64,000 nucleotides of DNA from positions 32,233 through 96,232 of the forward strand of contig DASPSE010000411.1 of the NCBI GenBank assembly GCA_035624085.1, written 5' to 3'. The notes under the pieces were generated by a model that made no database searches, was not told the DNA's origin, and saw only the letters and a program-made list of their open reading frames with translations. The stretch's first letter is position 1, and the number at the start of each line of letters is the position of its first letter. This DNA is from Terriglobales bacterium. GTDB lineage: Bacteria; Acidobacteriota; Terriglobia; Terriglobales; Acidobacteriaceae. This document shows, one piece after another, positions 47,197 to 61,867 of this stretch. The translations under genes were made by a program, and so were the position numbers.

Positions 47197-48324
47197 TCAC
47201 CGACCCGGTCCACGGTCAACAACTTTCTTTAACGTTTGGACGCTCAGTCGGCCCATGCCAAGGCCGTTGAGGTCACGAGCTCTCGAACGAAGATCGATCT
47301 GAATCAATTCGCTAGCTAAAGTTATGATTGCGCTTGTGACGGGGGTGCAGATGCCTGTTAATCTCCCGAGCGATTCCATCGGCACCATTCCATAAGGAAT
47401 ATCCTCCAACAAGAATCGATGCTGGAGTGTAGGTGGTGCATAATCCTTCGCATAGACCGGATTTGTGGAAAGGACTTCCTGCAGGTTGGTTCCCTTGGCG
47501 CCTTCATGCCCGTACCACTCCAAAGAAACTTCTAACATGGAGTCCAGCGTCAAGCCGAACCGCTTTCCAAGAGAGATCCGTTCACGATCTACCGCCTCCG
47601 CTGTACGAGCAACCGCTGGCGTGCAGCCATCCCAATAAAAAAGAAAATCACCTTTCGTCTTCTCGGCCCAGCCAGCATTGTGGATCAGAATCGGCGCGTG
47701 GACCACTGTGTTTATATTTCGAAGCCCAGTTTCGAGGACGTTCTTCGCTGCGCGCACATCGGCATAAACGTTTAGAAGCGTTCTCATTACTCCTGGCGTA
47801 TCTGAGCCAGGATAGGCAGCCACCCGAAGGCCCTTCTTATAACCGCTCACCCAGGCCACTGTCGGCTCCGACTTGAAGCCGGAATAGATCATGCACTCCA
47901 TCTCAGCAACTTTTACTTCCCGCTTATTTCCCTTTGCTCTCAAAACGCGCGCAAACTCGATCGCTCCTCCGAAATTTCCTGGCGTAAGGACCACAACCTG
48001 ACCATCTTCCAGATGCGGAGCGCAGACTTCGGCGAATCTCTTCTGGCCAAAAGCCGGGACGACGACCAAGACAACATCTGCCCCTGAAAGAGCTTCCTTG
48101 GGATCTGTTGTGACCACGTCCAACTTGGCCAAGCCTCCGTGGATTCCAGGATTACCGACAATCTGGAGTTCGATTGACTTGCTCTTTAAGATGCCTTCGA
48201 TGTTGTTCTCGAATTCCGGCACCTCACAGATGGACACACGGTGTCCCCGCAGCTTCAAATCAGCGGCAGTGATGAACGCGCCGTTGCCGCCTCCTAGAAC
48301 TGCTATATTCGGCTTCGTTGCCAT
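47197..48324 (-). CDS. Opine (octopine/nopaline) dehydrogenase family NAD(P) oxidoreductase, paralog 1
   Basis: 375 aa. N-terminal Rossmann IAVLGGGNGAFITAADLKLRGHRV, plus a C-terminal helical domain pattern (..YAKDYAPPTLQHRFLLEDIPYGMVPM..) typical of the family. Confidence 0.8.
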   Translation of the reverse strand: MATKPNIAVLGGGNGAFITAADLKLRGHRVSICEVPEFENNIEGILKSKSIELQIVGNPGIHGGLAKLDVVTTDPKEALSGADVVLVVVPAFGQKRFAEVCAPHLEDGQVVVLTPGNFGGAIEFARVLRAKGNKREVKVAEMECMIYSGFKSEPTVAWVSGYKKGLRVAAYPGSDTPGVMRTLLNVYADVRAAKNVLETGLRNINTVVHAPILIHNAGWAEKTKGDFLFYWDGCTPAVARTAEAVDRERISLGKRFGLTLDSMLEVSLEWYGHEGAKGTNLQEVLSTNPVYAKDYAPPTLQHRFLLEDIPYGMVPMESLGRLTGICTPVTSAIITLASELIQIDLRSRARDLNGLGMGRLSVQTLKKVVDRGPGR

Positions 48325-48363
48325 TGCTCCCCCTTCGATGTGGACACGTGTGGAATCGCGGAA

Positions 48364-49458
48364 CTATCCGTTTTCAACGTAAGAAATCAACTGCTCCAGA
48401 TTCATTCCCTGAATACCCAATCTTTCCGGCGTCCAACCGGTCTGCCAGTAATCGGTTTGGTTGATTAAAGAAGCAATATCAATAAGAGCGTTGATTGTTG
48501 GTGTTCGCACACCCAGCATCTTGCCGAGATATGCCATCGGAACGATGCCATAGGGGACATCTTCGCTCAAAAAGCGGTGCGAAAGATTCTCAGGGGCGCG
48601 GATGAATCGGTTAGGCTCGCTCTCCTGCAGTGCGGTGTAGACCGAACCCGATTTGAATGCATTTTCGCTGGTTGAACCTGCCTTGTAAAAGTGTTCGACA
48701 AAACGGTCGCTTGAGTAACCGATCCGTTTGCAAATAGAGATCCTTTCTTTATCAATTTCATCAATCACTTTGGCAACAGCAGGCGTTGTGCCTTCGCAAT
48801 AATAAGAAAAGTTTCCTTTGGTGAATTCAATCCAGCCGGCATTCATAATCATGCCCGGGGCATGCATCACCGCGTTGAAATTGGCAAGTGAAGTTTCCAG
48901 GACGTTCCTACGCGCCGTGCCGCCCGGAAATATCTCCTGAAAAACCTTGAAACACATGTTGGCTTGTTTCCCCGGTAGGGATGCAAATTGAGTCTTGGTC
49001 CGTACCGTAATCTTTACCTTGGCGCTTCCCGTGAGCCTGCAGACATATGCCAGAGTATTTGTTTCACACACCGGGATATCGGCACTGACTCTTTTGTCCC
49101 TGAGTATCTTTCTAAACGCCAAAGCACCTCCGGTGGAACCGGGGTTTAGAACCACGATCTGACCGGCCTTGAGATAAGGAGCACAACCATCGGCATAGGC
49201 CGCATGGGCGAGAGCTGGAACGATAATCAGGACAATCTCAGCTTCCTCCAGCGCCTCGGGGAGTTGCTCGCACACTCGATAAATCGGAACTAGACGCTCA
49301 CCGCAGTCATCTATCAACGTGATGCCGCCCAGCTGCCGTATAAGATCGAGCACTTGTGAGGATAGGGAAAACAGCTTCACGCTGAATCCCTTCAGGGTCA
49401 AATCGGCGGCAGCCGCATGTGCTCCGTTTCCTCCTCCCAAAACGGTGACGGTTCTCAT
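48364..49458 (-). CDS. Opine dehydrogenase family NAD(P) oxidoreductase, paralog 2
   Basis: 364 aa. VTVLGGGNGAHAAAADLTLKGFSV and ..RFIRAPENLSHRFLSEDVPYGIVPM... Colinear with paralog 1. Confidence 0.8.
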   Translation of the reverse strand: MRTVTVLGGGNGAHAAAADLTLKGFSVKLFSLSSQVLDLIRQLGGITLIDDCGERLVPIYRVCEQLPEALEEAEIVLIIVPALAHAAYADGCAPYLKAGQIVVLNPGSTGGALAFRKILRDKRVSADIPVCETNTLAYVCRLTGSAKVKITVRTKTQFASLPGKQANMCFKVFQEIFPGGTARRNVLETSLANFNAVMHAPGMIMNAGWIEFTKGNFSYYCEGTTPAVAKVIDEIDKERISICKRIGYSSDRFVEHFYKAGSTSENAFKSGSVYTALQESEPNRFIRAPENLSHRFLSEDVPYGIVPMAYLGKMLGVRTPTINALIDIASLINQTDYWQTGWTPERLGIQGMNLEQLISYVENG

Positions 49459-49576: not shown

Positions 49577-50491
49577 TTAGTGTTCCCGGGCCGCGGCAAC
49601 AGACAACAGCTCCAGCTGTTTCAGCGCGTCTTTGAGATCGTTCCGCTGGGCCGACGTAAGCGATGGCAGGGGAGCTCTTACCGGTCCACCTGGAAGCCCC
49701 ATCATTCTGAGAGCTTCCTTGCAAGGGGCAACATAGCCGGGATCATATTCCAAAAACCGGTTAAGGATCTGCAAGTTCATATGCGTTGCCAACGCTCTCT
49801 TATGGTCTCCCTGCAGAAAAGCATCGTAAATCTCAACCATCATTCTTGGAGCCACACAGGCTGCTGTAGAAAAGATGCCCACCGCACCGACGCACAGCGC
49901 GGGATAAAACTGGCTGTCAATACCCGTGAGAATGGAAAATCCTTTGCGCGACGTGCGGAGGACTTCCACAAGCTGTCCAAGGTCGGGGTTGCTTTGTTTC
50001 AGTCCGATGATTCCCGGAATATTCGATATCCGAGCAATCAGCTCGGGGGACATATTATTGCCGGTGTATAGAGGGTTGTTGTAAATCACGACCGGGAGTC
50101 CGGCACTTCCAGCCACTGCTTCGAAGTGAGCATAGATGGATTCGTCGGGCAGCCTAAAATAATATGGTGGCACCAAAATCACAGCATCAGCGCCGCCGAG
50201 CTTTGCATCGTGGCAGAGCTGAATAGCTTCCATAGTGCCGCAGGCTGCGGTCCCGGCGATCACGCAGGCCTTACCTTTGGCGACCTTGGCAACGTTCTCG
50301 GTGACTGCCCTTTTTTCTTCGCGGGAAAGGTGCGGAAACTCTCCAGTCCCGCCGCAGGTCATAATTGCGTGACATCCTCCATCGAGCACATACCGCGTAA
50401 GTGTCGCCACCCCTTTAACGTCGAGAAGGCCCTCGTTGTCGAACGGTGTGGCAATCGCCGCAATTACGCCTTTGAGATTTTCTGCCTCCAT
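49577..50491 (-). CDS. DHDPS / N-acetylneuraminate-lyase family class-I aldolase (DapA-like)
   Basis: GVIAAIATPFD, TCGGTGEF..LSREEK, VPPYY, and the Schiff-base lysine context IIGLKQS. ATG at 50491 preferred. Confidence 0.8.
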   Translation of the reverse strand: MEAENLKGVIAAIATPFDNEGLLDVKGVATLTRYVLDGGCHAIMTCGGTGEFPHLSREEKRAVTENVAKVAKGKACVIAGTAACGTMEAIQLCHDAKLGGADAVILVPPYYFRLPDESIYAHFEAVAGSAGLPVVIYNNPLYTGNNMSPELIARISNIPGIIGLKQSNPDLGQLVEVLRTSRKGFSILTGIDSQFYPALCVGAVGIFSTAACVAPRMMVEIYDAFLQGDHKRALATHMNLQILNRFLEYDPGYVAPCKEALRMMGLPGGPVRAPLPSLTSAQRNDLKDALKQLELLSVAAAREH

Positions 50492-50555: not shown

Positions 50556-52829
50556 TTAGGTCGGCTTCCTTCGCCTTCTCCGTGCTTGCAGAAGGGTGAA
50601 CAACGCTTCAGGCGTGATTGGAATTTGCCTTAGACGTACTCCAGTGGCAGCGGCCACCGCGTTCATAATGGCAGGCGCCGTAGGGAGCAAAGCAGGCTCG
50701 CCCACGCCCTTTGCCCCAAATGGGCCAGTAGGCTCTTCTCTTTCCACAAAAAAGGAAGTGATTTCGGGCACATCCAAAACGGTTGGCACGATGTAATCAG
50801 TGAATTGGGGATTCCGAATGGTTCCATCTTTAACGACGACATGCTCGAGGAGTGCATAACCGATCCCCATTGCTACACCGCCTTCAATCTGGCCTGTTAC
50901 ATTGAGAGGGTTCACGGCCTTGCCGACGTCATGGGCTGCTACGACTGACAGCACGTCTATTCCACCTGTTTGCATGTCCACTGAGATTAACGCGGCTTGA
51001 GTCGCAAAGGCATAGGTGGCATAAGGATTTCCTTGGCCGGTGTTTGGGTCGAGCGCTGTCGTTTCGGGATCAAACGAGGCTTCCGCCAGAGTCGCGATGC
51101 CCTTCCTTTTCATGCTGCTGACCACCTCCGAAATAGAGACCTCTCGGGTTGGGCATTTAGAAAGGTAGAATGTTTCATCATCAACAGCAACATCCTGCTT
51201 AGCGGCTCCGAGCAGCAATGCTGCGGATTCTCGGAGTGATTCGCGTAGAAGTTCTGAGGCTAGCTGAACCGCGCGTCCTACAATATAGGTGGTACGGCTA
51301 GAAGACGAGGTCCCTGAATCCGGGCAGATTTCTGTATCGCCTATAACAGCACGCACAGTTTCAGGGGCAGTGTTAAGCGTTTCTGCTGCAATCTGAATCA
51401 TGGCTGATTCGATTCCCTGTCCGCCATCGCCACAACCGAGATAAAGTACAAACTTTCCGGAATCTTCTGCCGCGATGCGTGCACACCCAGGATTTGGGCC
51501 AGCAGTCTTCCCGCATCCATAGAACATCGAGGCTATTCCCCAACCATATTTTTTGTAATTAGTGGATGCCGGCATATCTCGTTTCGCAATCTCATCGCGC
51601 ACTTTCCGAATGGTTTCAGCCAAACCAACAGAATTCTCCAGTTTCTGTCCTGTTGCGGTGCAAGAGCCTCGCCGAAGTCCATTCTTAAGCCGAATCTCAA
51701 ATGGGTCCATCTTGAGAGTCTCGGCGAGAATATCCATCTGAGATTCATGCGCAATCACGATCTGGGCAACACCAAATCCCCGCATGGCTCCAGCAATGGG
51801 GTTGTTCGTGTAAGCCACGCGCGACCGCACCAGAACATTCGGTACATCGTAAGGGCCTGCACCATAAATCATGGCGCGCATGAGAGTCGTAACGCTATAA
51901 GACGCGTAGGCTCCGCCGTCCGCCTTGATGGCAACCTTCACTGCCGTAATCCGGCCTTCGCGCGTTGCGCCGGTGGTGTAATCGATAACGAAGGGGTGCC
52001 TCTTCGTCGAGGCGATAAATGATTCTTCCCGGTCGTATACCATCTTGGCCGGCCGCCGGGTTTTAGCACTGACAAGGGCAGCATAGTAGCCTGGGTTCAC
52101 GCAATGCTTGTCTCCAAAGCATCCGCCAACCGTGGTTAGAATGCATCGCACGTGGTCGATGGGTACGCCTAGCATGGCGGCGATTTGCTTATGGTCATCG
52201 TGGATGTATTTGCTGGGCATCCAGACATTGACTTTGCCTTCCACCCAGGCTGCCACACCCGCTTCCGGTTCCGTGTAGGCGTGCTCGACCATTTGGGTTC
52301 GATAAGTATTCGTGGTCACTATTTCGGCATCTCTCAATGCCTGGTCCGGATCGCCCTTTCTAAGCACCCGATCCAGCAGCAGATTCCCGGATTCGTGAAT
52401 TTTAACGGCGTCAGACGCAAGCGCCTCTTCAAACGAAAAAATTGCTGGCAGGTCCTCGTAATCCACTTCAATTAATCCGGCGGCCTTCGCTGCAATTTCA
52501 GTGGTTTCCGCGGCCACTAGCGCCACTGGATCGCCAACCCGGCGGACCTTCTCATCGCATAGTATGGGTTGGTCTTTAATTCCGACTCCGGAACGATTCA
52601 AGCCTGGGATGTCGCGGCTGGTGTATATCTCAACAACGCCAGTAAACGCTTTGGCTTTCTCCGTGTGAATGCCCAGAATCTTGGCATGAGGCCGGTTGCT
52701 GCGGAAGACCTTAAGATAAAGCGTTCCAGGCAAACTAACATCTGCTGCGTAAATTGCTTTACCCGTCACCTTTGCCAACGCATCGACGCGCGCGAGTGGC
52801 TTGCCTAGGATTTGATGAGATTCCTTCAT
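50556..52829 (-). CDS. Xanthine-dehydrogenase-family molybdopterin-binding (large) subunit
   Basis: ILGKPLARVDALAKVTGKAIYAADV at the N-terminus; GGCFGDK, GAMRGFG; overall about 757 aa. ATG at 52829 preferred over 53003. Confidence 0.9.
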   Translation of the reverse strand: MKESHQILGKPLARVDALAKVTGKAIYAADVSLPGTLYLKVFRSNRPHAKILGIHTEKAKAFTGVVEIYTSRDIPGLNRSGVGIKDQPILCDEKVRRVGDPVALVAAETTEIAAKAAGLIEVDYEDLPAIFSFEEALASDAVKIHESGNLLLDRVLRKGDPDQALRDAEIVTTNTYRTQMVEHAYTEPEAGVAAWVEGKVNVWMPSKYIHDDHKQIAAMLGVPIDHVRCILTTVGGCFGDKHCVNPGYYAALVSAKTRRPAKMVYDREESFIASTKRHPFVIDYTTGATREGRITAVKVAIKADGGAYASYSVTTLMRAMIYGAGPYDVPNVLVRSRVAYTNNPIAGAMRGFGVAQIVIAHESQMDILAETLKMDPFEIRLKNGLRRGSCTATGQKLENSVGLAETIRKVRDEIAKRDMPASTNYKKYGWGIASMFYGCGKTAGPNPGCARIAAEDSGKFVLYLGCGDGGQGIESAMIQIAAETLNTAPETVRAVIGDTEICPDSGTSSSSRTTYIVGRAVQLASELLRESLRESAALLLGAAKQDVAVDDETFYLSKCPTREVSISEVVSSMKRKGIATLAEASFDPETTALDPNTGQGNPYATYAFATQAALISVDMQTGGIDVLSVVAAHDVGKAVNPLNVTGQIEGGVAMGIGYALLEHVVVKDGTIRNPQFTDYIVPTVLDVPEITSFFVEREEPTGPFGAKGVGEPALLPTAPAIMNAVAAATGVRLRQIPITPEALFTLLQARRRRRKPT

Positions 52830-52830
52830 A

Positions 52831-53217
52831 TTAAACTTGTTGCGCCTGGCCTCCTCCCTCGAAAAGCTCGATTTTGTTGCCGTCAGGATCGGCGACATAG
52901 ATGGTAAGACCATAAATGCCCTGATGAAGATCCTGGTAGAAGCTTGCACCCGCTTCCCTGAGGCGCGTGGCAATTCCGGCCACATCGTGCACTTTGAAAG
53001 CAATATGATCGATCTTCAGCGCTTCCGCAGAACCCCCGGAGGTTAGTGCGAGCCCTCCGTAAAAAGCAAGGAAAGAACGCCCGTCAGCAAGAGGCTTGGC
53101 GGGCCGAACCTTGAAGCCGAGAAGATCAACGTAAAAACGTTCCGAGCGAGTGATATCGGAGACCTTCAGCAGTATGTGCGCAAGTTGCGCAACTTCTGGG
53201 ATGCCCTGAGTAGGCAT
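52831..53217 (-). CDS. VOC (glyoxalase / bleomycin-resistance / extradiol dioxygenase) family protein
   Basis: 128 aa. HILLKVSDITRSERFYVDLLGF, DHIAFKV, DPDGNKIELFE. Confidence 0.8.
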   Translation of the reverse strand: MPTQGIPEVAQLAHILLKVSDITRSERFYVDLLGFKVRPAKPLADGRSFLAFYGGLALTSGGSAEALKIDHIAFKVHDVAGIATRLREAGASFYQDLHQGIYGLTIYVADPDGNKIELFEGGGQAQQV

Positions 53218-53220
53218 TGA

Positions 53221-54405: not shown

Positions 54406-54888
54406 TCAACGTGATGTGGCTCGTTGCAACACTGCGGCCGCCTTCTCGATCGACTGGACAATCTTCAAATATCCCGTGCAGCGGCAGATATTGCCGGCGA
54501 TGCCCTCGCGAATCTCTTGCTCAGTGGGATCGGGGTTCTTCCTCAAAAGGGCCCCTGCTGATATCAGCAGTCCAGGAATGCAAAAACCGCATTGCACGGC
54601 GCCATTGTCGATAAACGCCTGTTGCAGAGGATGCAGGTTGGACGGGTCGCCCAAGCCTTCGACAGTAACAATCCCTTTTCCCTCCATTGCAATTGCGAGG
54701 CACAGACAGGAATTGACCGCCTCACCATCCAGCAGAACCGTACATGCGCCGCACTCACCTGTACCGCAACCCTCCTTCGTGCCCGTTAGACCAACCTTCT
54801 CGCGAATTACATCGAGCAGCAGGTCCTTTGCATCAACTACCAAGGCACGAAGCTTCCCATTTACGTTTAGGGTGATGTTCTTTTTCAT
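54406..54888 (-). CDS. Xanthine-dehydrogenase-family [2Fe-2S] (small) subunit
   Basis: 160 aa. CGTGECGACTV and QCGFCIPG..CRCTGY cluster-binding motifs. Confidence 0.9.
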   Translation of the reverse strand: MKKNITLNVNGKLRALVVDAKDLLLDVIREKVGLTGTKEGCGTGECGACTVLLDGEAVNSCLCLAIAMEGKGIVTVEGLGDPSNLHPLQQAFIDNGAVQCGFCIPGLLISAGALLRKNPDPTEQEIREGIAGNICRCTGYLKIVQSIEKAAAVLQRATSR

Positions 54889-55782: not shown

Positions 55783-56790
55783 CTACTTGTGACCGACGAA
55801 AGATTCTGTCAGCTCCCGCACCAACTGCAACGCGAGTCCTCTTTCTATGGCATCTCCAACAATGGACACTACCGGCTCTTCTACTCCAGCGTCAATGAAG
55901 GATTTCAGACGATCGCGGCAGTGATTAGGTGTACCTGCCACCGCGAAGGTCTCTACCGCTTCGTCCGGCACAAGCCGCGCCGCCCCGCTCAGATCCCGGC
56001 GAGACACGGCGGCGATAATGGCTTCCTGGTCTATAGCGATTTTGGCGGCCGCGATATTTTCGGCGAAGAACTTGTTCCGGAAGACGAAGGCTAGCTGGCC
56101 GCGTACCAACTCCTTGGCACGCCCATCATCTCTGGCGACACCTAGAAAAAGGCGGGCTGCTTTGCGCAAGGATTTAGGATCTCGTCCTGCTCTCCGGGCA
56201 CCCTCATCTACAAAGGACAAAGACTGGTTGATGAACTCTGGCGACAAACCGGCAGTGAGGACTACGCCATCTGCGAAACGCCCGGCGAGACGAAGCATGT
56301 TGGGTCCCATCGCGGCAATGTAGATGGGAATCGGGGTGGCGGGTCGGAAGCCCATACGAGCACCCGCGAGGCGGATCGTTTCGCCTGAGTAGTGAACTGC
56401 TTCCCCCGACCAGAGGGCGCGCAAGCATCCGACGAACTCTTCCACAGCACGAACAGGTTTGATCGGCTCCTTCCCTGATTCCTGGAGAAACAGAGGGTTG
56501 CCAATGCCCACGGCCAGTGCCACCCGTCCCGGCGCTGCCTCCGCTAGCGTTGTCATGGCCATCGCCGTGGGCGTTGGATGCCAGAGATACGGGCTTACTG
56601 CCGTGGGGACGAGTACGGCACCATCTGTCGATGTGGCGAATGCCATGCACACGAGGGTTGCTTCCCTGTAGCCGAGATGTTCGGCCGCCCACAAGCTCGT
56701 GGCACCAGCGGAAACGGCCTCCCGTGCCAGTTGCACCGCTTCAAGAATTGGGAGGAAGCCGTCGAACGCTACCCCTACAGGAAGCTTCAT
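55783..56790 (-). CDS. LLM-class (luciferase-like) flavin/F420-dependent oxidoreductase
   Basis: A..AGATSLWAAEHLGYREA, ALAVGIGNP, and a TIM-barrel-length protein. ATG at 56790 with a GGAGGA RBS preferred over TTG at 56805. Confidence 0.8.
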   Translation of the reverse strand: MKLPVGVAFDGFLPILEAVQLAREAVSAGATSLWAAEHLGYREATLVCMAFATSTDGAVLVPTAVSPYLWHPTPTAMAMTTLAEAAPGRVALAVGIGNPLFLQESGKEPIKPVRAVEEFVGCLRALWSGEAVHYSGETIRLAGARMGFRPATPIPIYIAAMGPNMLRLAGRFADGVVLTAGLSPEFINQSLSFVDEGARRAGRDPKSLRKAARLFLGVARDDGRAKELVRGQLAFVFRNKFFAENIAAAKIAIDQEAIIAAVSRRDLSGAARLVPDEAVETFAVAGTPNHCRDRLKSFIDAGVEEPVVSIVGDAIERGLALQLVRELTESFVGHK

Positions 56791-56959: not shown

Positions 56960-58093
56960 TCATTGGATGACCAGCAGCTTATCCGTATTCGCATAATCGG
57001 ATAAAAGCTCGCATCCGCTCTTGGTGACGAGGATCATATCCTTGTTCTGCATGCCGAAACCGTAGCCTGTTTGATAACACAATGGTTCGACGCCAAGAAC
57101 CATTCCGGGTTCGAGCTCGGCATCAGTGGTCTTCCCAAGGATCGGGGTCTTCCCGAGATAGGGGTTCTCGTGCAAGTGCAACCCAATTCCGTGGCCAACA
57201 AAGGAGATGGGGGGCAAGTTCATCTCTTCAAGTTTCTTAATAAACGCCCTGTAAATAGCACGACAACTCGCTCCTGGCTTGATCATCTCCATGATTTGGT
57301 ACTTGCACTCGACCAAATGCCGCCAAATTCCTTCGGCATTGGGCGGGGCATCTCGCACCACCGCCGTTCGGCATACCCCGGCATGATAACCGTTCATCAC
57401 GGAGAATATCTCGATGCGGCAGACATCCTGGGGCTGAAGGCGCCGCTCTGTGGGCCCAACATTCGGGAGTTGGCTGCGTTCACCGGTTGCGACAATCATC
57501 AGTTTGAAGTGCTCCGCTCCCAGCGCATAGATGTTGCGGGTGAGAGCAGCGGCAATGTCCATCTCGGAGCTTCCGGCCCTGACTGTGCCAATTGCGTCTG
57601 TAATTGACTGATCCGCAATTCGCGAGAGATGCCGCAGGAGGCTGATTTCATCCTGAGTCTTGATCTGGCGGAGCCGGGAGAGAAGATCTTCGGCGGGCAC
57701 AAATGTTGTCCCCGGCAGACAAGCTTGCAGAGAAACCATGTCTCTCGCCGGCAGATAATCCGTTTCAATGCCAATTTTGGCATGAGACAAGCCAAGTTCA
57801 GCGAGCAGGCTGGCAAGGACCTGCGTGCAGTTGTCAGAAAACTCTGACCAGATGCGCGTCTTCGTGTTTGGCTCACGTTTTTTCAGCGTGGTCGCCTCCA
57901 TATCCACGCCGAGGATCGCACAATCACCATTCCGGGTCACAATCGCCATCGCATGGCGGTGACGAATCAGAGGCTGCGAGGGAACGACAAATCCGGTTAC
58001 ATAAGCGAAGTTCTCAGGCGAGCAAGAAATGATTGCGTCCAAATTTTCCGGTTCCATGGCCGCAACTTGGCGGCTGGCGATCTCGCTCCGCAT
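56960..58093 (-). CDS. M24 family metallopeptidase (Xaa-Pro peptidase / creatinase type)
   Basis: 377 aa. Creatinase-like N-domain, then a pita-bread core: ..CRIEIFSVMNGYHAGVCRT.., VGHGIGLHLHE, GMVLGVEP. Confidence 0.85.
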   Translation of the reverse strand: MRSEIASRQVAAMEPENLDAIISCSPENFAYVTGFVVPSQPLIRHRHAMAIVTRNGDCAILGVDMEATTLKKREPNTKTRIWSEFSDNCTQVLASLLAELGLSHAKIGIETDYLPARDMVSLQACLPGTTFVPAEDLLSRLRQIKTQDEISLLRHLSRIADQSITDAIGTVRAGSSEMDIAAALTRNIYALGAEHFKLMIVATGERSQLPNVGPTERRLQPQDVCRIEIFSVMNGYHAGVCRTAVVRDAPPNAEGIWRHLVECKYQIMEMIKPGASCRAIYRAFIKKLEEMNLPPISFVGHGIGLHLHENPYLGKTPILGKTTDAELEPGMVLGVEPLCYQTGYGFGMQNKDMILVTKSGCELLSDYANTDKLLVIQ

Positions 58094-58427
58094 CTTTGAT
58101 TCCTTTGTGGACTAGGATCCGCTCTTTTAGAAGCGGAAGAAGTTTACTAGAAATGAATCCCGCCATTCTTAACTACCGTAGAAATGGAATTCAAATAGAA
58201 AGAACTGCCCTCTGCCGATAGACTTCTTGGCTTGAAAAGCAGGAGACAGTTATTATGCTCATCCAGCGGTCTGGATGCGAACTTTGATCCGACATCTGAA
58301 CACAGATCAAGTGTTCGTCACTAAACTACCATCTTCTTCACTTTGCAATACGTGTCTTCGGCGAGAGGCATTCAAGCCAACGTCGTCAGATGACGATTGA
58401 TCAGAACTGATTCACAATCGAACTCAG

Positions 58428-59783
58428 ATGGGAAGCACGGAGCAAGCCCCGCATTCGAAAACCGCAGCTGAAATCATCGAGGATCTCCCTTGGAGTTTCG
58501 GTGTGCAAGGAGTGATTTTCCTCGCTTGCGGCTTGGCCTACATGTTTGACGCCGGGAATGTGCTGCTGACAGGCTTCGTCATGTCAATGATTAAACCTCT
58601 CTGGAAACTGAGTGCGATCCAAGTGGGGACCTTTGGCATGGTTACTTTTCTCGGCATGGGGATTGGAGCAATGATAAGCGGTGCCCTGGCCGATACCTTT
58701 GGCCGTAAGCGCACCTATGTTGGCACCCTCCTCTGTTTTTCGTTGTTTTCGTTTGCCTGCGCTCTGGCGCCATCTTTCCCCTGGCTTTTGGCCGCCCGAT
58801 TCCTCGTCGGACTCGGACTCGGCGGTATTGTTCCAGTGGTCTACTCCTTGGTTGCCGAGTTTATGCCGGCACGGGTGCGCGGAAAAGCTCTCAACGTGAT
58901 CGATGTTTTCTGGGGAGTAGGAGGCATCTTCAACGGGTTTGTCGCGACCTTGCTAGCACCCTATGAGAATTGGCGCTTGCTTTTCTTGCCCACCGTACTT
59001 CCTTTAGTGCTCGCTTTATGGGCGATATTTTATCTTCCCGAATCCCCATCTTTCCTGGCCCAGAAAGGACGCTGGAAAGAGGCGTCTTCCATAATCAATC
59101 GACTGATTCAGAAAACGCACGCCGAGCTTGGCGATTGGACCTTAACCTTCGGAGAGCAGCCCCCTCCGCGAAATTATGGGGTTATTTCCCGTTTTACGAA
59201 GCTCCTTGAATTTGACTGGAAGCTCACGGTCCAGTTATGGATTGTCGTGATGTTAATCTTTGTGCACCGGAAAGGCGTAGAGGTCTGGCTCCCCTCCATA
59301 TTAGTTGCTGAAGGATATAGTCATCAAAAAGCGTTCCTGACGGCGGGTATTATGTATCCTGCCGGTTTGGCGGGCATTCTCGTATCCACCTGGCTCATCG
59401 ACGTTTGGGGTCGGAAGAGATTTATTATTGTGAGCTCGGTCCTTTCAGCCGTGCTGATCGTCGGATTCACAAAAGTGCTGGCGATGCCAGGCTGGGCTCA
59501 CCTCGCGATTGTGTTGTATGGCTTTGTAGGGGAGGCAGCGATCGCAACGCTTTATACATTCACTTCCGAGAGTTACCCCACCGACTTGCGTGCTACAGGA
59601 TTCGGATGTGCTTCGCTAGTCGGCCGCCTTACGATGGCATTCCTCGTTTCGCTCGTATTCGGCGGTATCTTGTGGCCCACAGTCGGACCTTCAAATGCTT
59701 TTATCGTCGTCGGGATTCTTCTCATTGCAAGCATGGTGATATTGAATCGCTTGCCTGAGACTCGCGGTAAGGCGCTGAACTGA
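58428..59783 (+). CDS. MFS transporter (metabolite:H+ symporter type)
   Basis: 451 aa with about 12 hydrophobic segments; GALADTFGRKRT loop motif; C-terminal LPETRGKAL. Confidence 0.85.
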   Translation: MGSTEQAPHSKTAAEIIEDLPWSFGVQGVIFLACGLAYMFDAGNVLLTGFVMSMIKPLWKLSAIQVGTFGMVTFLGMGIGAMISGALADTFGRKRTYVGTLLCFSLFSFACALAPSFPWLLAARFLVGLGLGGIVPVVYSLVAEFMPARVRGKALNVIDVFWGVGGIFNGFVATLLAPYENWRLLFLPTVLPLVLALWAIFYLPESPSFLAQKGRWKEASSIINRLIQKTHAELGDWTLTFGEQPPPRNYGVISRFTKLLEFDWKLTVQLWIVVMLIFVHRKGVEVWLPSILVAEGYSHQKAFLTAGIMYPAGLAGILVSTWLIDVWGRKRFIIVSSVLSAVLIVGFTKVLAMPGWAHLAIVLYGFVGEAAIATLYTFTSESYPTDLRATGFGCASLVGRLTMAFLVSLVFGGILWPTVGPSNAFIVVGILLIASMVILNRLPETRGKALN

Positions 59784-59905
59784 AATCTGGGAAATCAGGG
59801 CGGCAAAACGAGAATCGATCAACTCCGGCGCGTGACTGCAAATGCCTCCGCTCACGATCACAGCCGAAGCGGGGTTACCCGGGTAATTTTCGAAGGAGGT
59901 CCTTG

Positions 59906-60100
59906 ATGGCAGTAGTCATTGTCGAGATGTGGCAAGGGCGCACGCTTGAGCAAAAACGAAAATTGGTCGAAGCGATTGCTGCGGCCATGAAAGAGCACTG
60001 CGGTGCGGGTACGGAGCACCTGCATGTGATTATTCATGAGGTAGCGCGGGAAAATTGGGGGCGTAACGGTAAGTTGGCTGTGAATGACAAGAACAAATAA
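59906..60100 (+). CDS. 4-oxalocrotonate-tautomerase-family protein lacking the canonical N-terminal proline
   Basis: 64 aa. AAGGAGG RBS 6-7 nt before the ATG. MAVVIVEMWQGRTLEQKRKLVEAIAAAMKEHCGAGTEHLHVIIHEVARENWGRNGKL has the beta-alpha-beta 4-OT pattern (..GRT.EQK..L...I.....G......V.I.E....W..G) but begins Met-Ala rather than Met-Pro. Confidence 0.7.
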   Translation: MAVVIVEMWQGRTLEQKRKLVEAIAAAMKEHCGAGTEHLHVIIHEVARENWGRNGKLAVNDKNK

Positions 60101-60181
60101 CTATTCCAGGTCGTCAGTTGCGGGGTAGAGCACTTGCCCAAGCATGCGCTTTGGAATCAGAATCGGGCCGGTCAGTTCCAG

Positions 60182-61867
60182 CTACTGCGCTTTGCACACG
60201 AAGTTTGCTGCCACCCAATTGCGCGAATCATTTTGGCCGCCAGCCGGTCCCTGATACACGGCCTGCTGCGGATAAGGGCAGAGCTTACGTTCATCATCGA
60301 CCGGTGCATCAGTGGGCACGCCGTTTCTCTTATCGCTGCGATGCACGGCAACGACATAGTCGGGTGCCTTCCCGTTCTCCACCCATTCAGCCAGCGGCGC
60401 CAGCTTGTCCCACTCGTTCGGTCCCGGCCCTCCTCCGCAGTGCCCCATCCCCGGCGCCATGAACAGCCTTGTTTTGTTCGCTGCGGCGGCGGAATCGCCG
60501 TTGAAAGTGGCCTTTACCATTTCTTTGTAGTAGTCGATGATGGCCCCGGGATAGGCATCGCCGTCACCCCAGCCTTGATAGAAGATCAGCTTGCCGTTGT
60601 GCCTGTTTAAGAACCTTGTCAGATCCGGGTAAGTAGCATCTAGCAGCTTTGACTTGGAATCCCCCTTTCCAGCGGTGACATCGTCGATGTTGAACTCCCA
60701 CCAGGCATATTCTGGGAAAGGTGCCTTCTTATCCGGAGGGAAGGAGAGGTCTTTTATATTCGTCGGAGCGACACCTGGAGAGTGCTCGAAAAACAAGAAA
60801 TTCACGTGATCTACCTCATAGATCAGATGTGAAGGGGTGAGGTTATTTCCCCCATACGGAATCACGTTTTCGGGCCACGAGAACTCCGATCCGTAAGCAA
60901 GCCCGTTAAAAATGCGAACGCCCTTGCTGTCGTGTGGTCCGGCATAAAGTTTCTTGATGGTTTGCACCTGCACCTTCGTGAAACATGTATCGGCGTTCTT
61001 GTCACCCGGACACATCTTATCCGCCAAGTCGGTATCGGGGTTGAAGTTGCAACTTTCGGGATCACTGACGATCCCGTCCTTGATTCCATCCCTGGCGTCG
61101 CATTTGTCGAGCACGGCTTTGCGCAGTATCTCCAGCTTGGTCAGGCTTTTATAGGTACCGTCGCCAGATACATCATAGGCGAGGTTGCCAGCAAAGTGGT
61201 CTTTCATCAGTAGCTGCAGGCTCCACAGGTCCTCAATGTTCAGTCTTTCATAACTAAAAACCGGGGCGGTAACAGCGATGCCGTCGAAGTCCTCGGGGAA
61301 ACGTTGTGCCTCCATCATGCCTTGGCGACCACCCTGCGAGCAGCCTTGCCAATAGGCGTACCGCTGAGGCTTGCCGTAGTACGCCTTAACCAGAGTCTTC
61401 GATGCGTTGGCCGTTACGTGGACAGCACGATAGGCAAAGTCGATCAGGGCTTGCTCGTTTGCGAAGGCGAACGAAGCATAAGGTTCTGAGCCATTGTCGT
61501 GGCCCGTGTTGCTATTCGCTACGGCATACCCTTGGGTTAAATGTTCGCTGTCGTAGACCAGGTTGCCTGCTTTTCCTCCGTTACCGATATTCAGCAGTTT
61601 CCCATTCCAGTTCGCCGGCAACGGCAGCTGCGCATGCCAGTGGATGCCGGGAGAGATCAGGCCGGTCACATGGCAATATCGCGGCGTTGTGCCGTTCGCT
61701 TCGGTGATCTCGGCGGAGAGAATGGTCAGATTCGGAAGACGCAGCAACGCATGGCAGGCAGCTTCCTCGCTCAGCGCGGTTGCTTGCCCTGCGCTATTAA
61801 GCGCAGTCGCTATCATCAGGACCAACAGCAGGAAGATCCTAAGCGGTAACCGCGCTGTAGCTGCCAT
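60182..61867 (-). CDS. Tannase / feruloyl-esterase family alpha/beta hydrolase, exported
   Basis: Signal peptide (..MIATALNSAGQ); YWQGCSQGGRQG (GCSxGG nucleophile motif of the tannase family); several conserved Cys; C-terminal ..CPYPQQAVY. Confidence 0.85.
   Translation of the reverse strand: MAATARLPLRIFLLLVLMIATALNSAGQATALSEEAACHALLRLPNLTILSAEITEANGTTPRYCHVTGLISPGIHWHAQLPLPANWNGKLLNIGNGGKAGNLVYDSEHLTQGYAVANSNTGHDNGSEPYASFAFANEQALIDFAYRAVHVTANASKTLVKAYYGKPQRYAYWQGCSQGGRQGMMEAQRFPEDFDGIAVTAPVFSYERLNIEDLWSLQLLMKDHFAGNLAYDVSGDGTYKSLTKLEILRKAVLDKCDARDGIKDGIVSDPESCNFNPDTDLADKMCPGDKNADTCFTKVQVQTIKKLYAGPHDSKGVRIFNGLAYGSEFSWPENVIPYGGNNLTPSHLIYEVDHVNFLFFEHSPGVAPTNIKDLSFPPDKKAPFPEYAWWEFNIDDVTAGKGDSKSKLLDATYPDLTRFLNRHNGKLIFYQGWGDGDAYPGAIIDYYKEMVKATFNGDSAAAANKTRLFMAPGMGHCGGGPGPNEWDKLAPLAEWVENGKAPDYVVAVHRSDKRNGVPTDAPVDDERKLCPYPQQAVYQGPAGGQNDSRNWVAANFVCKAQ

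What the first reader, a model, noticed from the sequence alone, without database searches (positions are those of the whole stretch)
47197..61867. Candidate catabolic island for an N-heterocyclic or imino-acid substrate, with an unusual enzyme combination
Seen: a 15-kb block, almost entirely on the minus strand, encodes two opine dehydrogenases, a DHDPS-family lyase, a three-subunit xanthine-dehydrogenase-family hydroxylase, a VOC protein, a DpaA-like dehydrogenase, an LLM oxidoreductase and an M24 creatinase/prolidase-type enzyme. A divergent MFS transporter, a 4-OT-family tautomerase and a tannase-family esterase complete the block. pxpBCA (an ATP-dependent lactam hydrolase) and dapB lie immediately to the left. 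Established: XDH-family enzymes hydroxylate N-heteroaromatic rings such as nicotinate, picolinate and quinoline; VOC dioxygenases and 4-OT tautomerases are typical ring-cleavage pathway components; DHDPS and DpaA act on dihydrodipicolinate and dipicolinate in their canonical roles. Inference: the combination does not match the nicotinate or picolinate clusters I know. It could encode degradation of a pyridine-dicarboxylate such as dipicolinate (abundant in endospore necromass), or of an opine-like or cyclic imino acid. This is speculative.
Basis: inference. Interest (0 to 1): 0.65.

Follow-up and report, generated by a model that had tools for sequence, protein, structure and literature searches.

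The report
Orphan N-heterocyclic acid catabolic gene cluster
A peat-soil acidobacterium carries a real but uncharacterised degradation gene cluster, probably for a ring-shaped nitrogen-containing acid. Its core is a relative of the spore enzyme DpaA paired with a small tautomerase, and this pairing recurs in many soil and water bacteria, but the compound it degrades is still unknown.

Summary
Ten minus-strand genes encode an M24 hydrolase, an LLM oxidoreductase, XDH FAD and 2Fe-2S subunits, a DpaA-like dehydrogenase, a VOC protein, the XDH Mo subunit, a DHDPS-like lyase and two opine dehydrogenases. A divergent aromatic-acid-type MFS transporter and a 4-OT tautomerase complete the block.

The proposed co-conservation test passes for a core only. 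In 47 non-redundant genomes with full flanks, the DpaA-like gene sits beside the tautomerase in 47, VOC in 42, an opine-DH-like gene in 26 and the M24 enzyme in 25. XDH appears in 8, and tannase, pxpABC and dapB in none. Close acidobacterial relatives keep DpaA-like–VOC–XDH_L–DHDPS–ODH–ODH–M24.

The XDH large subunit scores nearest nicotinate dehydrogenase, not CO dehydrogenase. The DHDPS-like protein lacks DapA's Arg138 and Thr44. The M24 protein lacks two of five metal ligands. The window's tautomerase has Ala in place of the catalytic Pro1.

The cluster does not match the published dipicolinate (dip) cluster.

Most likely function: hydroxylation, a change of ring redox state and ring opening of a carboxylated N-heterocycle. 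The substrate is unidentified, and dipicolinate specifically is unsupported.

The parts
56960..58093 (-). M24-fold hydrolase with a Creatinase_N domain. It is a non-canonical subfamily: the prolidase metal ligands D/D/H/E/E read E/G/H/E/K.
   Evidence: Pfam match. Alignment to P. furiosus prolidase 1pv9. The same substitutions occur in 35 of 36 family members. It is 57-81% identical in 36 of 81 related loci.
55783..56790 (-). Luciferase-like (LLM) oxidoreductase. Its best matches are F420-type families, all below their cut-offs.
   Evidence: Homologues at 45-54% identity occur in 4 loci; in L009, L012 and L031 one sits directly upstream of the DpaA-like gene in place of the opine-DH-like gene.
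54885..55760 (-). FAD-binding (medium) subunit of the XDH-family enzyme.
   Evidence: FAD_binding_5 and CO_deh_flav_C domains. Overlaps the next gene by 4 bp.
54406..54888 (-). 2Fe-2S (small) subunit of the XDH-family enzyme.
   Evidence: Fer2 and Fer2_2 domains. XdhC/glyceraldehyde-DH gamma-type matches below cut-off.
53221..54132 (-). DpaA-like two-domain NAD(P) dehydrogenase, the signature gene of the conserved module.
   Evidence: DpaA_N domain at 3e-18. DpsA and spore_dpaA models score below cut-off, 190 vs 261 and 166 vs 320 bits. AF2 model with pLDDT 89; best PDB fold matches are DpaA 3d4o and 2rir, TM 0.84-0.87. About 2000 homologues; 56-73% identical in 81 loci.
52831..53217 (-). Single-domain VOC metalloprotein with an invariant His14/His71/Glu117 triad.
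   Evidence: Pfam Glyoxalase. Triad invariant in 70 of 70 family members. Gene starts 3 bp after the DpaA-like gene and ends 1 bp before XDH_L. Present in 42 of 47 full loci.
50556..52829 (-). Molybdopterin (large) subunit of the XDH-family hydroxylase.
   Evidence: Ald_Xan_dh_C, MoCoBD_1 and MoCoBD_2 domains. Nearest PDB entry is E. barkeri nicotinate dehydrogenase 3hrd chains A and B, 368 + 266 bits. GVGEPAL motif present and no AYRCSFR motif. No NCBIfam equivalog cut-off is reached.
49577..50491 (-). DHDPS/NAL-family class I lyase. It is not a true DapA.
   Evidence: Lys161, Tyr133 and Tyr107 are kept, but Thr44 is Gly and Arg138 is Tyr when aligned to P. aeruginosa DapA 3noe. Conserved at 81-93% in acidobacterial relatives only.
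48364..49458 (-). Opine-dehydrogenase-family protein ODH2.
   Evidence: Octopine_DH, 1e-42. 35% identical to the proteobacterial ODH that overlaps the DpaA-like gene.
47197..48324 (-). Opine-dehydrogenase-family protein ODH1.
   Evidence: Octopine_DH, 6e-45. Nearest PDB entry is Arthrobacter N-(1-D-carboxyethyl)-L-norvaline dehydrogenase 1bg6, 2e-53. 36% identical to ODH2.
58094..58427 (.). Divergent intergenic region between the M24 and MFS genes; probable promoter region.
   Evidence: Gene coordinates. Sigma-70-like hexamers on both strands at 58227-58281, although the region-wide count is no higher than in shuffles.
58428..59783 (+). MFS transporter of the aromatic-acid/H+ symporter type.
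   Evidence: MFS_1 and Sugar_tr domains. Best NCBIfam match is TIGR00895, the aromatic acid/H+ symport family, followed by MhpT and PcaK, all below cut-off. A 75%-identical copy follows M24 in L088 and L093.
59906..60100 (+). 4-OT-family tautomerase with Ala in place of the catalytic Pro1.
   Evidence: Tautomerase domain, 8e-16. Relatives start MPVV or MPFV; the window starts MAVV. The base is confirmed in three independent assemblies. A tautomerase is present in 47 of 47 full loci, normally directly after the DpaA-like gene.

Best explanation
The block is a chromosomal catabolic gene cluster of an acidobacterium from peat, near Ca. Korobacteraceae. It most likely degrades a carboxylated N-heteroaromatic acid of the pyridine-2-carboxylate type, taken up by the aromatic-acid-type MFS transporter. 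It is built around a conserved module that is uncharacterised in the resources searched here: a DpaA-like NADP-type dehydrogenase with a 4-OT tautomerase, a VOC metalloprotein and a non-canonical M24 hydrolase.

Proposed mechanism (inferred, not shown):
1. The three-subunit Mo hydroxylase puts an oxo group on the ring next to nitrogen, giving a pyridone.
2. The DpaA-like enzyme runs the DpaA reaction in reverse, converting pyridine or pyridone to a dihydro or tetrahydro ring using NADPH. The opine-DH-like and/or LLM enzymes carry out a further C=N or C=C reduction.
3. The creatinase-like M24 enzyme opens the cyclic amide or amidine hydrolytically.
4. The tautomerase converts the resulting enamine or enol dicarboxylate to the imine or keto form, which loses ammonia.
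5. The resulting 2-oxo-dicarboxylate is cleaved by the DHDPS-family lyase in this lineage, or decarboxylated by a split TPP enzyme in most other lineages.

Shown: gene content, operon-like packing, co-conservation, and the family and active-site features. Inferred: the substrate class, the order of steps, and the direction of the DpaA-like reaction.
For: - Tight packing with overlaps and 1-3 bp gaps across DpaA-like–VOC–XDH_L.
- The DpaA-like gene pairs with the tautomerase in 47 of 47 full-flank loci, VOC in 42, ODH-like in 26 and M24 in 25.
- The order DpaA-like–VOC–XDH_L–DHDPS–ODH–ODH–M24–MFS is kept in acidobacterial relatives.
- XDH-family enzymes of at least two different clades have been recruited next to the module: about 27% identity between window and proteobacterial copies, present in 19 of 81 loci.
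- The window XDH_L is nearest to nicotinate dehydrogenase and has the catalytic Glu motif.
- Its 63-66% orthologues carry a UbiD (hetero)aromatic-acid decarboxylase between the subunit genes, at least in L095.
- The only characterised relatives of the DpaA-like protein interconvert dihydropyridine-dicarboxylate and pyridine-dicarboxylate, and the fold match is TM 0.84-0.87.
- Its Rossmann motif GHGTIG…VVARS lacks an acidic residue after beta-2, which is NADP-like (sequence, my reading). pntAB lies next to the cluster in Aminobacter and Shinella.
- Proteobacterial versions add an allantoinase/dihydropyrimidinase-like cyclic amidohydrolase, deaminases and a RutB/BiuH-like hydrolase. This reduce-open-deamidate logic is known from reductive pyrimidine and nicotinate catabolism (established knowledge).
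- The M24 protein lacks two metal ligands, resembling creatinase rather than a peptidase.
- Transporters are of the aromatic-acid MFS, TTT and DASS types. The TTT binding protein is nearest to PDB 5oei/5oku and to BugE.
Against: - No substrate, transcript or enzyme data exist. No RNA runs were found and there is no riboswitch.
- Xanthobacteraceae versions lack any XDH or cyclic amidohydrolase, so hydroxylation is not obligatory for the core.
- The VOC has a 2-His-1-Glu triad, and its best hits include extradiol dioxygenases. A formamidase gene sits in relatives. Both fit oxidative ring cleavage better than hydrolysis.
- In L006 the TPP decarboxylase genes lie between XDH subunit genes. This would also fit an aldehyde-oxidoreductase role for the XDH.
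- NADPH alone is a weak reductant for aromatic pyridines (established chemistry).
- The window's own tautomerase lacks Pro1.
- The accessory genes differ so much between lineages that a single shared substrate is hard to name.
Confidence: 0.35

Rival explanations
1. Oxidative, meta-cleavage-like route. XDH, and possibly the LLM acting as a monooxygenase, hydroxylate the heteroaromatic ring. The DpaA-like enzyme works in its native aromatising direction on a dihydro intermediate. The VOC protein is a small extradiol-type dioxygenase that opens the ring. The 4-OT tautomerase isomerises the ring-fission product. Amidases (M24, and formamidase in relatives) remove nitrogen. The DHDPS-family enzyme acts as the terminal pyruvate-forming aldolase.
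For: - VOC has an invariant His/His/Glu triad, plus an invariant Tyr 10 residues before the Glu.
- VOC's best hits include homoprotocatechuate and catechol 2,3-dioxygenases.
- VOC plus 4-OT is the classical meta-pathway pairing (established knowledge).
- The second-best NCBIfam hit of the DHDPS-like protein is the HpaI-type 2,4-dihydroxyhept-2-ene-1,7-dioate aldolase model.
- An FmdA_AmdA formamidase follows the cluster in L088.
Against: - The VOC is a 128-aa single domain, and no histidine occupies the usual second-sphere position (sequence, my reading).
- In type B clusters VOC is fused to an isochorismatase-type hydrolase, an odd partner for a dioxygenase.
- No aldehyde dehydrogenase or hydratase of a meta pathway is present.
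- Xanthobacteraceae versions have no hydroxylase at all.
- The roles of the two ODHs are unexplained.
Confidence: 0.2
2. Catabolism of a saturated cyclic imino acid or an opine-like secondary-amine dicarboxylate, such as a (hydroxy)pipecolate or proline derivative, piperidine-2,6-dicarboxylate or an N-carboxyalkyl amino acid. The opine-DH-like enzymes oxidise the C-N bond to a cyclic imine. The DpaA-like enzyme dehydrogenates further. The tautomerase handles the enamine/imine shift. The DHDPS-family enzyme acts like the Pyr4H2C deaminase of the hydroxyproline pathway. The M24 enzyme and the MLE-like enolase process a peptide or amidino precursor.
For: - The ODHs are true opine-DH relatives: CENDH 1bg6 at 2e-53 and 4e-53.
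- In Proteobacteria the ODH gene overlaps the DpaA-like gene by about 4-11 bp.
- M24 is adjacent to an MLE-subgroup enolase in more than 30 loci.
- DHDPS-family deaminases act on cyclic imine carboxylates in hydroxyproline catabolism (established knowledge).
- RidA and a D-amino-acid dehydrogenase lie in the Aminobacter cluster.
Against: - It gives no role to a Mo hydroxylase nearest nicotinate dehydrogenase, nor to the aromatic-acid-type MFS.
- It does not explain the deaminases and the hydantoinase-like enzyme in type B clusters.
- ODH is absent from 21 of 47 full loci, being replaced by LLM, SGL or a beta-lactamase-fold gene.
- M24 lacks peptidase metal ligands.
Confidence: 0.15
3. For example: XDH hydroxylates C4 to give chelidamate, the DpaA-like and ODH enzymes reduce the ring to 4-hydroxy-tetrahydrodipicolinate, and the DHDPS-like enzyme cleaves it by retro-aldol reaction to pyruvate plus aspartate semialdehyde.
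For: - DpaA, DapA and DapB homologues lie within 11 kb of one another.
- The DHDPS-like protein just reaches the dapA model cut-off, 209.4 vs 206.15 bits.
- The scheme assigns a role to XDH, the DpaA-like enzyme, the ODHs, the tautomerase and DHDPS (inference).
Against: - The DHDPS-like protein lacks Arg138, which binds aspartate semialdehyde, and Thr44.
- dapB is on the other strand beyond pxpABC, passes the housekeeping dapB equivalog, and is never co-conserved.
- DHDPS is absent from nearly all proteobacterial loci.
- The only genetically defined DPA pathway is Mo-independent and starts with the DipD monooxygenase (PMC11472048).
- Its DipR operator GTATAC is not enriched: 33 observed against about 150 expected, with almost none in promoters.
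- Type B clusters carry a toolkit for nitrogen-rich rings.
Confidence: 0.08
4. There is no single pathway. The window block is a mosaic in which the conserved DpaA-like/4-OT/VOC(/M24) module serves a general role, for example detoxifying or salvaging a reactive keto or enamine acid. The XDH, DHDPS-like, ODH and LLM genes belong to separate functions that merely lie alongside.
For: - Accessory genes vary widely between lineages.
- XDH_L orthologues at 63-66% identity occur without the module.
- Intergenic gaps of 273 bp before the DpaA-like gene and about 170 bp after M24 allow separate transcription.
Against: - XDH_L starts 1 bp after VOC, and the XDH subunit genes flank the DpaA-like and VOC genes.
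- The order is retained in relatives at about 69-93% XDH_L identity.
- Dedicated transporters and GntR or IclR regulators accompany the module in most loci.
Confidence: 0.1

Closest known systems
Anaerobic nicotinate pathway of Eubacterium barkeri (nicotinate dehydrogenase, 6-hydroxynicotinate reductase, enamidase) and the related Azorhizobium caulinodans route
   Same: The logic is hydroxylate, then reduce, then hydrolyse. The window's Mo subunit is most similar to the E. barkeri nicotinate dehydrogenase large and medium Mo chains, 3hrd.
   Different: There is no homologue of the ferredoxin-dependent 6-hydroxynicotinate reductase, and none of enamidase, 2-(hydroxymethyl)glutarate dehydrogenase or the B12 mutase. 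The candidate reductase here is a DpaA-like protein and the candidate ring-opening enzyme is an M24 protein. No NCBIfam equivalog is reached.
Dipicolinate synthase DpaAB (SpoVFA/SpoVFB) of endospore formers
   Same: The signature protein shares the DpaA_N domain and the two-domain DpaA fold, TM 0.84-0.87.
   Different: Identity is only 24%. Scores fall below both curated cut-offs. No DpaB flavoprotein is called next to it, and its constant partner is a 4-OT tautomerase. The hosts are non-sporulating Acidobacteriota and Proteobacteria, and the context is catabolic.
dip cluster for dipicolinate catabolism, Alcaligenes faecalis JQ135 (PMC11472048)
   Same: It is a multi-operon cluster for a pyridine carboxylate, is widespread in Alpha- and Betaproteobacteria, and is regulated by a GntR/FadR-type repressor. 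Many proteobacterial loci here also carry a GntR/FCD regulator.
   Different: DPA degradation in JQ135 does not need the molybdenum cofactor and starts with the DipD monooxygenase, giving 3-hydroxy-DPA. The DipR operator GTATAC is absent from the promoters of the loci studied here. The Dip protein sequences could not be obtained for a direct comparison.
pic (picolinate) and nic (nicotinate) aerobic clusters of Alcaligenes, Bordetella and Pseudomonas
   Same: They begin with an XDH-family hydroxylation of a pyridine carboxylate and include an Amidohydro_2 decarboxylase (PicC-like). Freshwater Burkholderiales versions of the cluster also carry an Amidohydro_2 gene.
   Different: The window has no flavin monooxygenase, 2,5-dihydroxypyridine dioxygenase, deformylase, maleamate amidase or maleate isomerase. 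The DpaA-like, 4-OT, VOC and M24 genes are, to my knowledge, not part of those clusters.
Reductive pyrimidine catabolism and the Rut pathway
   Same: Type B relatives have a dihydropyrimidinase/allantoinase-like enzyme, a RutB/BiuH-like isochorismatase, deaminases and RidA. The window has an LLM, the same superfamily as RutA.
   Different: None of these reaches an equivalog cut-off. No dihydropyrimidine dehydrogenase is present. The window itself lacks all the amidohydrolases.
Catechol meta-cleavage lower pathway (extradiol dioxygenase, 4-oxalocrotonate tautomerase, decarboxylase, aldolase)
   Same: VOC is paired with 4-OT. A pyruvate-type lyase is present here, and a decarboxylase is present in relatives.
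   Different: The VOC is a single 128-aa domain. The decarboxylase in relatives is a split TPP enzyme of the sulfopyruvate/phosphonopyruvate type, not a 4-OD. No semialdehyde dehydrogenase or hydratase is present.

Membership tests
Dipicolinate synthase subunit A (DpaA/DpsA) | DpaA_N domain plus Rossmann domain, and the DpaA fold | tested here: met
   PF16924 at 3e-18. Foldseek matches 3d4o and 2rir, TM 0.84-0.87.
Dipicolinate synthase subunit A (DpaA/DpsA) | Score above the curated equivalog cut-offs | tested here: not met
   NF006162 scores 189.7 against 261; TIGR02853 scores 165.8 against 319.65.
Dipicolinate synthase subunit A (DpaA/DpsA) | Adjacent DpaB flavoprotein partner | tested here: not met
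   No flavoprotein gene appears in the window or in the Pfam-annotated gene calls of L001-L006 and L087-L090. The constant neighbour is a tautomerase.
4-hydroxy-tetrahydrodipicolinate synthase (DapA) | Schiff-base Lys161 and Tyr133/Tyr107 | tested here: met
   Alignment to P. aeruginosa DapA 3noe.
4-hydroxy-tetrahydrodipicolinate synthase (DapA) | Arg138 (binds aspartate semialdehyde) and Thr44 of the catalytic triad | tested here: not met
   Arg138 is Tyr and Thr44 is Gly. The TIGR00674 score only just reaches its cut-off, 209.4 vs 206.15.
Xanthine-dehydrogenase-family Mo hydroxylase | Three components (Mo, FAD, 2x[2Fe-2S]) and the catalytic Glu in a GxGEP motif | tested here: met
   Pfam domains on three genes. 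GVGEPAL at residue 710.
Aerobic CO dehydrogenase (CoxL) | AYRCSFR or AYRGAGR active-site loop, with best similarity to CoxL | tested here: not met
   Motif absent. CODH models score 260-295 bits against 585 for pucD. PDB CoxL scores 262 bits against 368 + 266 for nicotinate dehydrogenase.
Nicotinate dehydrogenase, xanthine dehydrogenase or 4-hydroxybenzoyl-CoA reductase (specific equivalogs) | Score above the curated cut-off of any substrate-specific model | tested here: not met
   pucD scores 585 against 784; XdhA 492 against 780; 4-HBCR alpha 493 against 995.
dip (dipicolinate) catabolic cluster | DipR operator GTATAC in the promoter regions, which the paper reports in all cluster types | tested here: not met
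   33 occurrences against about 150 expected over 86 loci, almost none intergenic, and none in the window cluster's promoter regions.
dip (dipicolinate) catabolic cluster | Homology to DipD and the other Dip proteins | not testable with these tools
   The primary paper is not held and the JQ135 genome is not in any searchable collection.
4-oxalocrotonate tautomerase family | Beta-alpha-beta monomer of about 60 aa with the catalytic N-terminal Pro1 | tested here: not met
   The fold and family are met (PF01361 at 8e-16). However, the window protein starts Met-Ala, whereas the 75 relatives, including acidobacterial L093, start Met-Pro.
M24 metallopeptidase (prolidase/aminopeptidase P) | Five metal ligands Asp, Asp, His, Glu, Glu | tested here: not met
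   The ligands read E228, G239, H301, E336 and K351. The pattern is conserved in 35 of 36 members.
Opine dehydrogenase family | Octopine_DH helical domain and similarity to characterised opine dehydrogenases | tested here: met
   PF02317 at 6e-45 and 1e-42. CENDH 1bg6 at 2e-53. Catalytic residues and substrate were not tested.
5-oxoprolinase PxpABC as part of this cluster | Co-conservation with the core genes | tested here: not met
   The genes are genuine Pxp (cut-offs met). They are absent from 81 of 81 related loci and adjacent only in L151, a relative about 90% identical.

The most novel reading that the evidence does not exclude
The DpaA-like proteins outside endospore formers are a widespread family of NADPH-linked enzymes that, together with a dedicated 4-OT tautomerase, reduce and tautomerise hydroxylated pyridine- or pyrimidine-carboxylate rings. 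This would let the rings be opened hydrolytically without oxygenases. It would be a previously unrecognised, oxygen-independent catabolic strategy for N-heteroaromatic acids, possibly including picolinate- or dipicolinate-type compounds from necromass. It would be shared by soil and freshwater Proteobacteria and by peat Acidobacteriota.
Probability: 0.2. Interest if true: 0.8.

Novelty: new variant of a known kind. Interest (0 to 1): 0.55.

Why it matters
Pyridine and related N-heterocyclic acids are abundant in necromass, plant exudates and humified peat. Examples are picolinate, nicotinate, quinolinate and dipicolinate. Their turnover links the carbon and nitrogen cycles, yet only a few pathways are defined genetically.

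This work identifies a conserved module that is uncharacterised in the resources searched here. No curated NCBIfam equivalog exists and no paper was found. It is present in at least 163 species-level genomes. Its signature enzyme is annotated everywhere as 'dipicolinate synthase subunit', a name that is almost certainly wrong in these non-sporulating hosts.

Cultured, sequenced isolates carry the module: Aminobacter aminovorans KCTC 2477, Shinella sp. HZN7, Pandoraea terrae LMG 30175 and Rhodoplanes spp. The function is therefore directly testable. Success would correct a widespread misannotation and might reveal a new ring-opening strategy.

Tried and rejected
- **Known dip cluster.** Rejected. 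The DipR operator is absent and the published pathway is Mo-independent. The primary DipD paper could not be read and the supplement is not held.
- **True DapA running in reverse.** Rejected on Arg138Tyr and Thr44Gly.
- **M24 as a prolidase or dipeptidase.** Rejected on the missing metal ligands.
- **CO dehydrogenase.** Rejected.
- **Mobile genomic island.** No tRNA and no GC shift.
- **Riboswitch or other RNA clue to the ligand.** No Rfam match at E<=1.
- **Co-expression.** No RNA runs hold the gene, and only peat or soil DNA runs were found.
- **Literature.** Searches for the gene combination found nothing relevant.
- **Opine-catabolic plasmid context.** The 14 plasmid hits are chromid-like replicons of Aminobacter, Shinella and Phyllobacterium, and the two regions inspected carry only generic annotation; no Ti- or Ri-type plasmids were among them.
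- **Ligand hints from solved relatives.** The TTT binding protein and the cog0402 deaminase were not discriminating.
- **Gene calling.** A longest-ORF gene caller failed on the high-GC loci and was replaced by GC3-weighted selection. Cluster counts from that step are approximate; the tblastn counts are the ones relied on.

Full report
**Observation.** On the minus strand, in transcription order, they are:

- an M24/Creatinase_N hydrolase (56960-58093);
- a luciferase-like oxidoreductase (55783-56790);
- the FAD subunit (54885-55760) and 2Fe-2S subunit (54406-54888) of an XDH-family enzyme;
- a DpaA_N-domain dehydrogenase (53221-54132);
- a 128-aa VOC protein (52831-53217);
- the XDH molybdopterin subunit (50556-52829);
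- a DHDPS-family protein (49577-50491);
- two Octopine_DH-family proteins (48364-49458 and 47197-48324).

An MFS transporter (58428-59783) and a 64-aa 4-OT-family tautomerase (59906-60100) lie divergently on the plus strand. A tannase-family esterase follows (60182-61909, minus). pxpB/C/A (44422-46824) and dapB (43462-44166) lie to the left. An independent gene caller on the public contig gives the same set.

The XDH genes are split. The DpaA-like and VOC genes lie between the 2Fe-2S and Mo subunit genes, with gaps of 3 bp and 1 bp. There is no GC shift and no tRNA, so 'island' should be read as 'cluster'.

**Source.** The contig comes from peat metagenomes. The closest genome locus is a Candidatus Korobacteraceae (Acidobacteriota) MAG with 69-83% protein identity (L059). 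The upstream genes, CarboxypepD_reg/OMP beta-barrel proteins, are what I would expect of Acidobacteriota (Pfam hits; the taxonomic reading is mine).

**Co-conservation.** The DpaA-like protein has about 2000 detectable homologues. The best 120 are 68-91% identical, and sources label them 'dipicolinate synthase subunit A'. A scan of one genome per species found 163 genomes with a relative. The best 80 loci are mostly Xanthobacteraceae and Hyphomicrobiales (Rhodoplanes, Pseudolabrys, Aminobacter) and Burkholderiales (Pandoraea terrae, Caldimonas, Ramlibacter), plus Rhodobacteraceae, two Actinomycetota MAGs and the Korobacteraceae MAG.

I ran tblastn with every window protein against the 81 non-redundant loci, 47 of which have the full ±10 kb flanks:

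| Window protein | Loci (of 81) | Full-flank loci (of 47) | Identity |
|---|---|---|---|
| Tautomerase | 75 | 47 | 48-66% |
| VOC | 68 | 42 | 42-80% |
| Opine-DH-like | 45 | 26 | about 30-35% in Proteobacteria |
| M24 | 36 | 25 | 57-81% in all but one locus (33%) |
| XDH large subunit | 19 | 8 | about 27% in Proteobacteria |
| LLM | 4 | 4 | 45-54% |
| DHDPS | 2 | 1 | 32-81% |
| MFS | 1 | 0 | 75% |
| Tannase, pxpA/B/C, dapB, Amidohydro_3 | 0 | 0 | – |

The tautomerase normally lies directly downstream of the DpaA-like gene.

A second scan with the XDH large subunit against metagenome contigs looked at closer relatives. Relatives with 69-93% XDH_L identity keep DpaA-like–VOC–XDH_L, and the longer contigs continue DHDPS–ODH2–ODH1–M24–MFS…tautomerase (L087-L094, L100, L101, L151). 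An IclR regulator lies upstream in L087 and L089. A split TPP decarboxylase plus a DASS transporter lies upstream in L090. pxp adjacency recurs only in L151, at about 90% identity.

The tannase, pxpABC and dapB are neighbours, not members.

**Architectures elsewhere**.

- **Xanthobacteraceae.** TTT binding protein–ODH–DpaA-like–tautomerase–VOC, next to split TPP decarboxylase–TTT–M24–MLE-like enolase–GntR.
- **Burkholderiales and Rhizobiales.** MLE-like–M24–cog0402 deaminase–(cytosine-deaminase-like)–CobW–GntR–NMT1-type ABC transporter–ODH–DpaA-like–allantoinase/dihydropyrimidinase-like amidohydrolase–unknown protein–tautomerase–isochorismatase::VOC fusion (RutB/BiuH-like). In Aminobacter and Shinella, RidA and pntAB follow, and Aminobacter also has a D-amino-acid dehydrogenase and malate synthase G.
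- **Freshwater Burkholderiales.** Other XDH enzymes, CoxG, an Amidohydro_2 decarboxylase-type gene and alpha/beta hydrolases surround DpaA-like–tautomerase–(VOC)–TTT.

In three loci an LLM that is 45-49% identical to the window's replaces ODH directly upstream of the DpaA-like gene.

**Residue-level checks.**

- *XDH_L.* It has the GVGEPAL catalytic-Glu motif and no CODH loop. It scores best against E. barkeri nicotinate dehydrogenase (368 + 266 bits), then 4-hydroxybenzoyl-CoA reductase (332), Desulfovibrio aldehyde oxidoreductase (302) and CoxL (262). Among NCBIfam models pucD is best, at 585 bits against a cut-off of 784. It is therefore a hydroxylase-type enzyme of unassigned specificity. 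Its 63-66% orthologues lack the DpaA-like module, and where the flanks were annotated (L095) a UbiD-family decarboxylase sits between the subunit genes, with MFS and TRAP transporters nearby. This points to (hetero)aromatic carboxylates.
- *DHDPS-like protein.* It keeps Lys161, Tyr133 and Tyr107 but has Gly for Thr44 and Tyr for Arg138. It is a class I lyase but not DapA.
- *M24 protein.* It has E/G/H/E/K at the five prolidase ligand positions, conserved in 35 of 36 members. In this it resembles the metal-free creatinase and not a peptidase.
- *VOC.* It has an invariant His14/His71/Glu117 triad in 70 of 70 members. The mapping used my recollection of the E. coli GloA sequence and agrees with the 1f9z match.
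- *DpaA-like protein.* It models confidently (pLDDT 89) and superposes on DpaA structures at TM 0.84-0.87 and 24% identity. The next-best matches are transhydrogenase dI/AlaDH-type folds. Its GHGTIG…VVARS segment looks NADP-type (my reading).
- *Opine dehydrogenases.* Both, and the proteobacterial one, match Arthrobacter N-(1-carboxyethyl)-norvaline dehydrogenase at about 1e-53. ODH1 and ODH2 are 36% identical to each other.
- *Tautomerase.* The window's copy starts Met-Ala, whereas every relative, including acidobacterial L093, starts Met-Pro. Three independent assemblies carry the same base.
- *MFS transporter.* Its best match is the aromatic-acid/H+ symporter family.

**Comparison with the known dipicolinate pathway.** The A. 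faecalis JQ135 dip cluster starts with the DipD monooxygenase, giving 3-hydroxy-DPA. It works without the molybdenum cofactor genes and is controlled by DipR through GTATAC operators that are reported in all dip cluster types (PMC11472048). GTATAC is depleted, not enriched, in the loci studied here and is almost never intergenic. The Dip protein sequences could not be obtained, so direct homology is untested. On these two criteria, though, this is a different system.

**Interpretation.** What is shown is a conserved, transporter- and regulator-associated module: DpaA-like + 4-OT + VOC ± M24/MLE-like ± ODH/LLM ± TPP decarboxylase. Different lineages have attached to it either Mo hydroxylases, from at least two XDH clades, or deaminases and cyclic amidohydrolases. 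Both kinds of enzyme make or process oxo-substituted N-heterocycles.

The only characterised relatives of the signature enzyme interconvert a dihydropyridine-dicarboxylate and a pyridine-dicarboxylate. I therefore favour, at about 0.35, a hydroxylate–reduce–hydrolyse route for a carboxylated N-heteroaromatic acid. The DpaA-like enzyme would be the ring oxidoreductase and M24 the ring-opening hydrolase. The tautomerase would handle the enamine or enol product, and a lyase (here) or a TPP decarboxylase (elsewhere) would handle the resulting 2-oxo-dicarboxylate.

The rivals are:

- an oxidative, meta-cleavage-like route with VOC as the dioxygenase (0.2);
- catabolism of a cyclic imino acid or opine (0.15);
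- a mosaic of unrelated functions (0.1);
- dipicolinate specifically (0.08).

The remaining probability is for something not considered here.

**Novelty.** No curated NCBIfam equivalog (release of June 2026) covers the DpaA-like, ODH or M24 proteins. RefSeq annotates them generically. Four literature searches on the gene combination found nothing. The module therefore appears uncharacterised. It is a new variant of a known kind of system, a bacterial N-heterocycle catabolic cluster, with an unexpected signature enzyme and cultured hosts in which it can be tested.

Noticed in passing
window 59906-59911: The 4-OT-family tautomerase begins ATG GCA (Met-Ala), where all 75 relatives have Met-Pro, the catalytic Pro1. 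This includes the acidobacterial relative L093. The base is identical in three independent peat assemblies at 10-20x depth, so it is a real variant and may weaken the enzyme.
   Followed up: yes
window 34935-34961: Two GTATAC hexamers lie 21 bp apart in the divergent intergenic region between a CarboxypepD_reg/OMP beta-barrel gene (31419-34841, minus) and a sulfite-oxidase-type molybdoenzyme gene (35144-36364, plus). GTATAC is the published core of the DipR (GntR/FadR) operator, but no such regulator was seen nearby.
   Followed up: partly
L095 6593-12253 (also L096-L098, L103): Orthologues of the window's XDH large subunit at 63-66% identity lack the DpaA-like and VOC genes. In L095, the one whose flanks were annotated, a UbiD-family decarboxylase sits between the 2Fe-2S and Mo subunit genes, where the window has DpaA-like and VOC. 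It is flanked by MFS and TAXI-TRAP transporters and an aldehyde:ferredoxin oxidoreductase.
   Followed up: partly
L006 3530-8827: Split TPP-dependent decarboxylase genes of the sulfopyruvate/phosphonopyruvate type lie between XDH subunit genes, immediately upstream of ODH–DpaA-like–tautomerase–VOC–M24. This suggests the XDH-family enzyme there could act on the decarboxylase's aldehyde product.
   Followed up: no
L091 25270-28452; L092 27387-30432: In Aminobacter aminovorans pAA01 and Shinella sp. HZN7 pShin-03 the cluster is followed by pntAB (proton-translocating NAD(P) transhydrogenase). This hints that the pathway consumes NADPH.
   Followed up: no
L057 12967-14127 and 24 other loci: In Burkholderiales and Rhizobiales versions the VOC domain is fused to the C-terminus of an isochorismatase-family (RutB/BiuH-like) hydrolase.
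   Followed up: partly
L009 8819-9805, L012, L031: A luciferase-like oxidoreductase 45-49% identical to the window's LLM takes the place of the opine-DH-like gene directly upstream of the DpaA-like gene. The two may be interchangeable partners.
   Followed up: partly
L088 10429-11445: In a close acidobacterial relative, an FmdA_AmdA formamidase/acetamidase gene lies between two MFS genes downstream of M24. The window has no counterpart.
   Followed up: no
window 25417-34841: Two very large CarboxypepD_reg + OMP beta-barrel (TonB-dependent-receptor-like) genes flank an M61 glycyl aminopeptidase gene. I take such receptor genes to be typical of Acidobacteriota (from general knowledge, not tested here).
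   Followed up: no
window 42901-43449 and 61961-62338: Two conserved ORFs (182 aa and 125 aa) called as genes on the source contig have no Pfam match.
   Followed up: no
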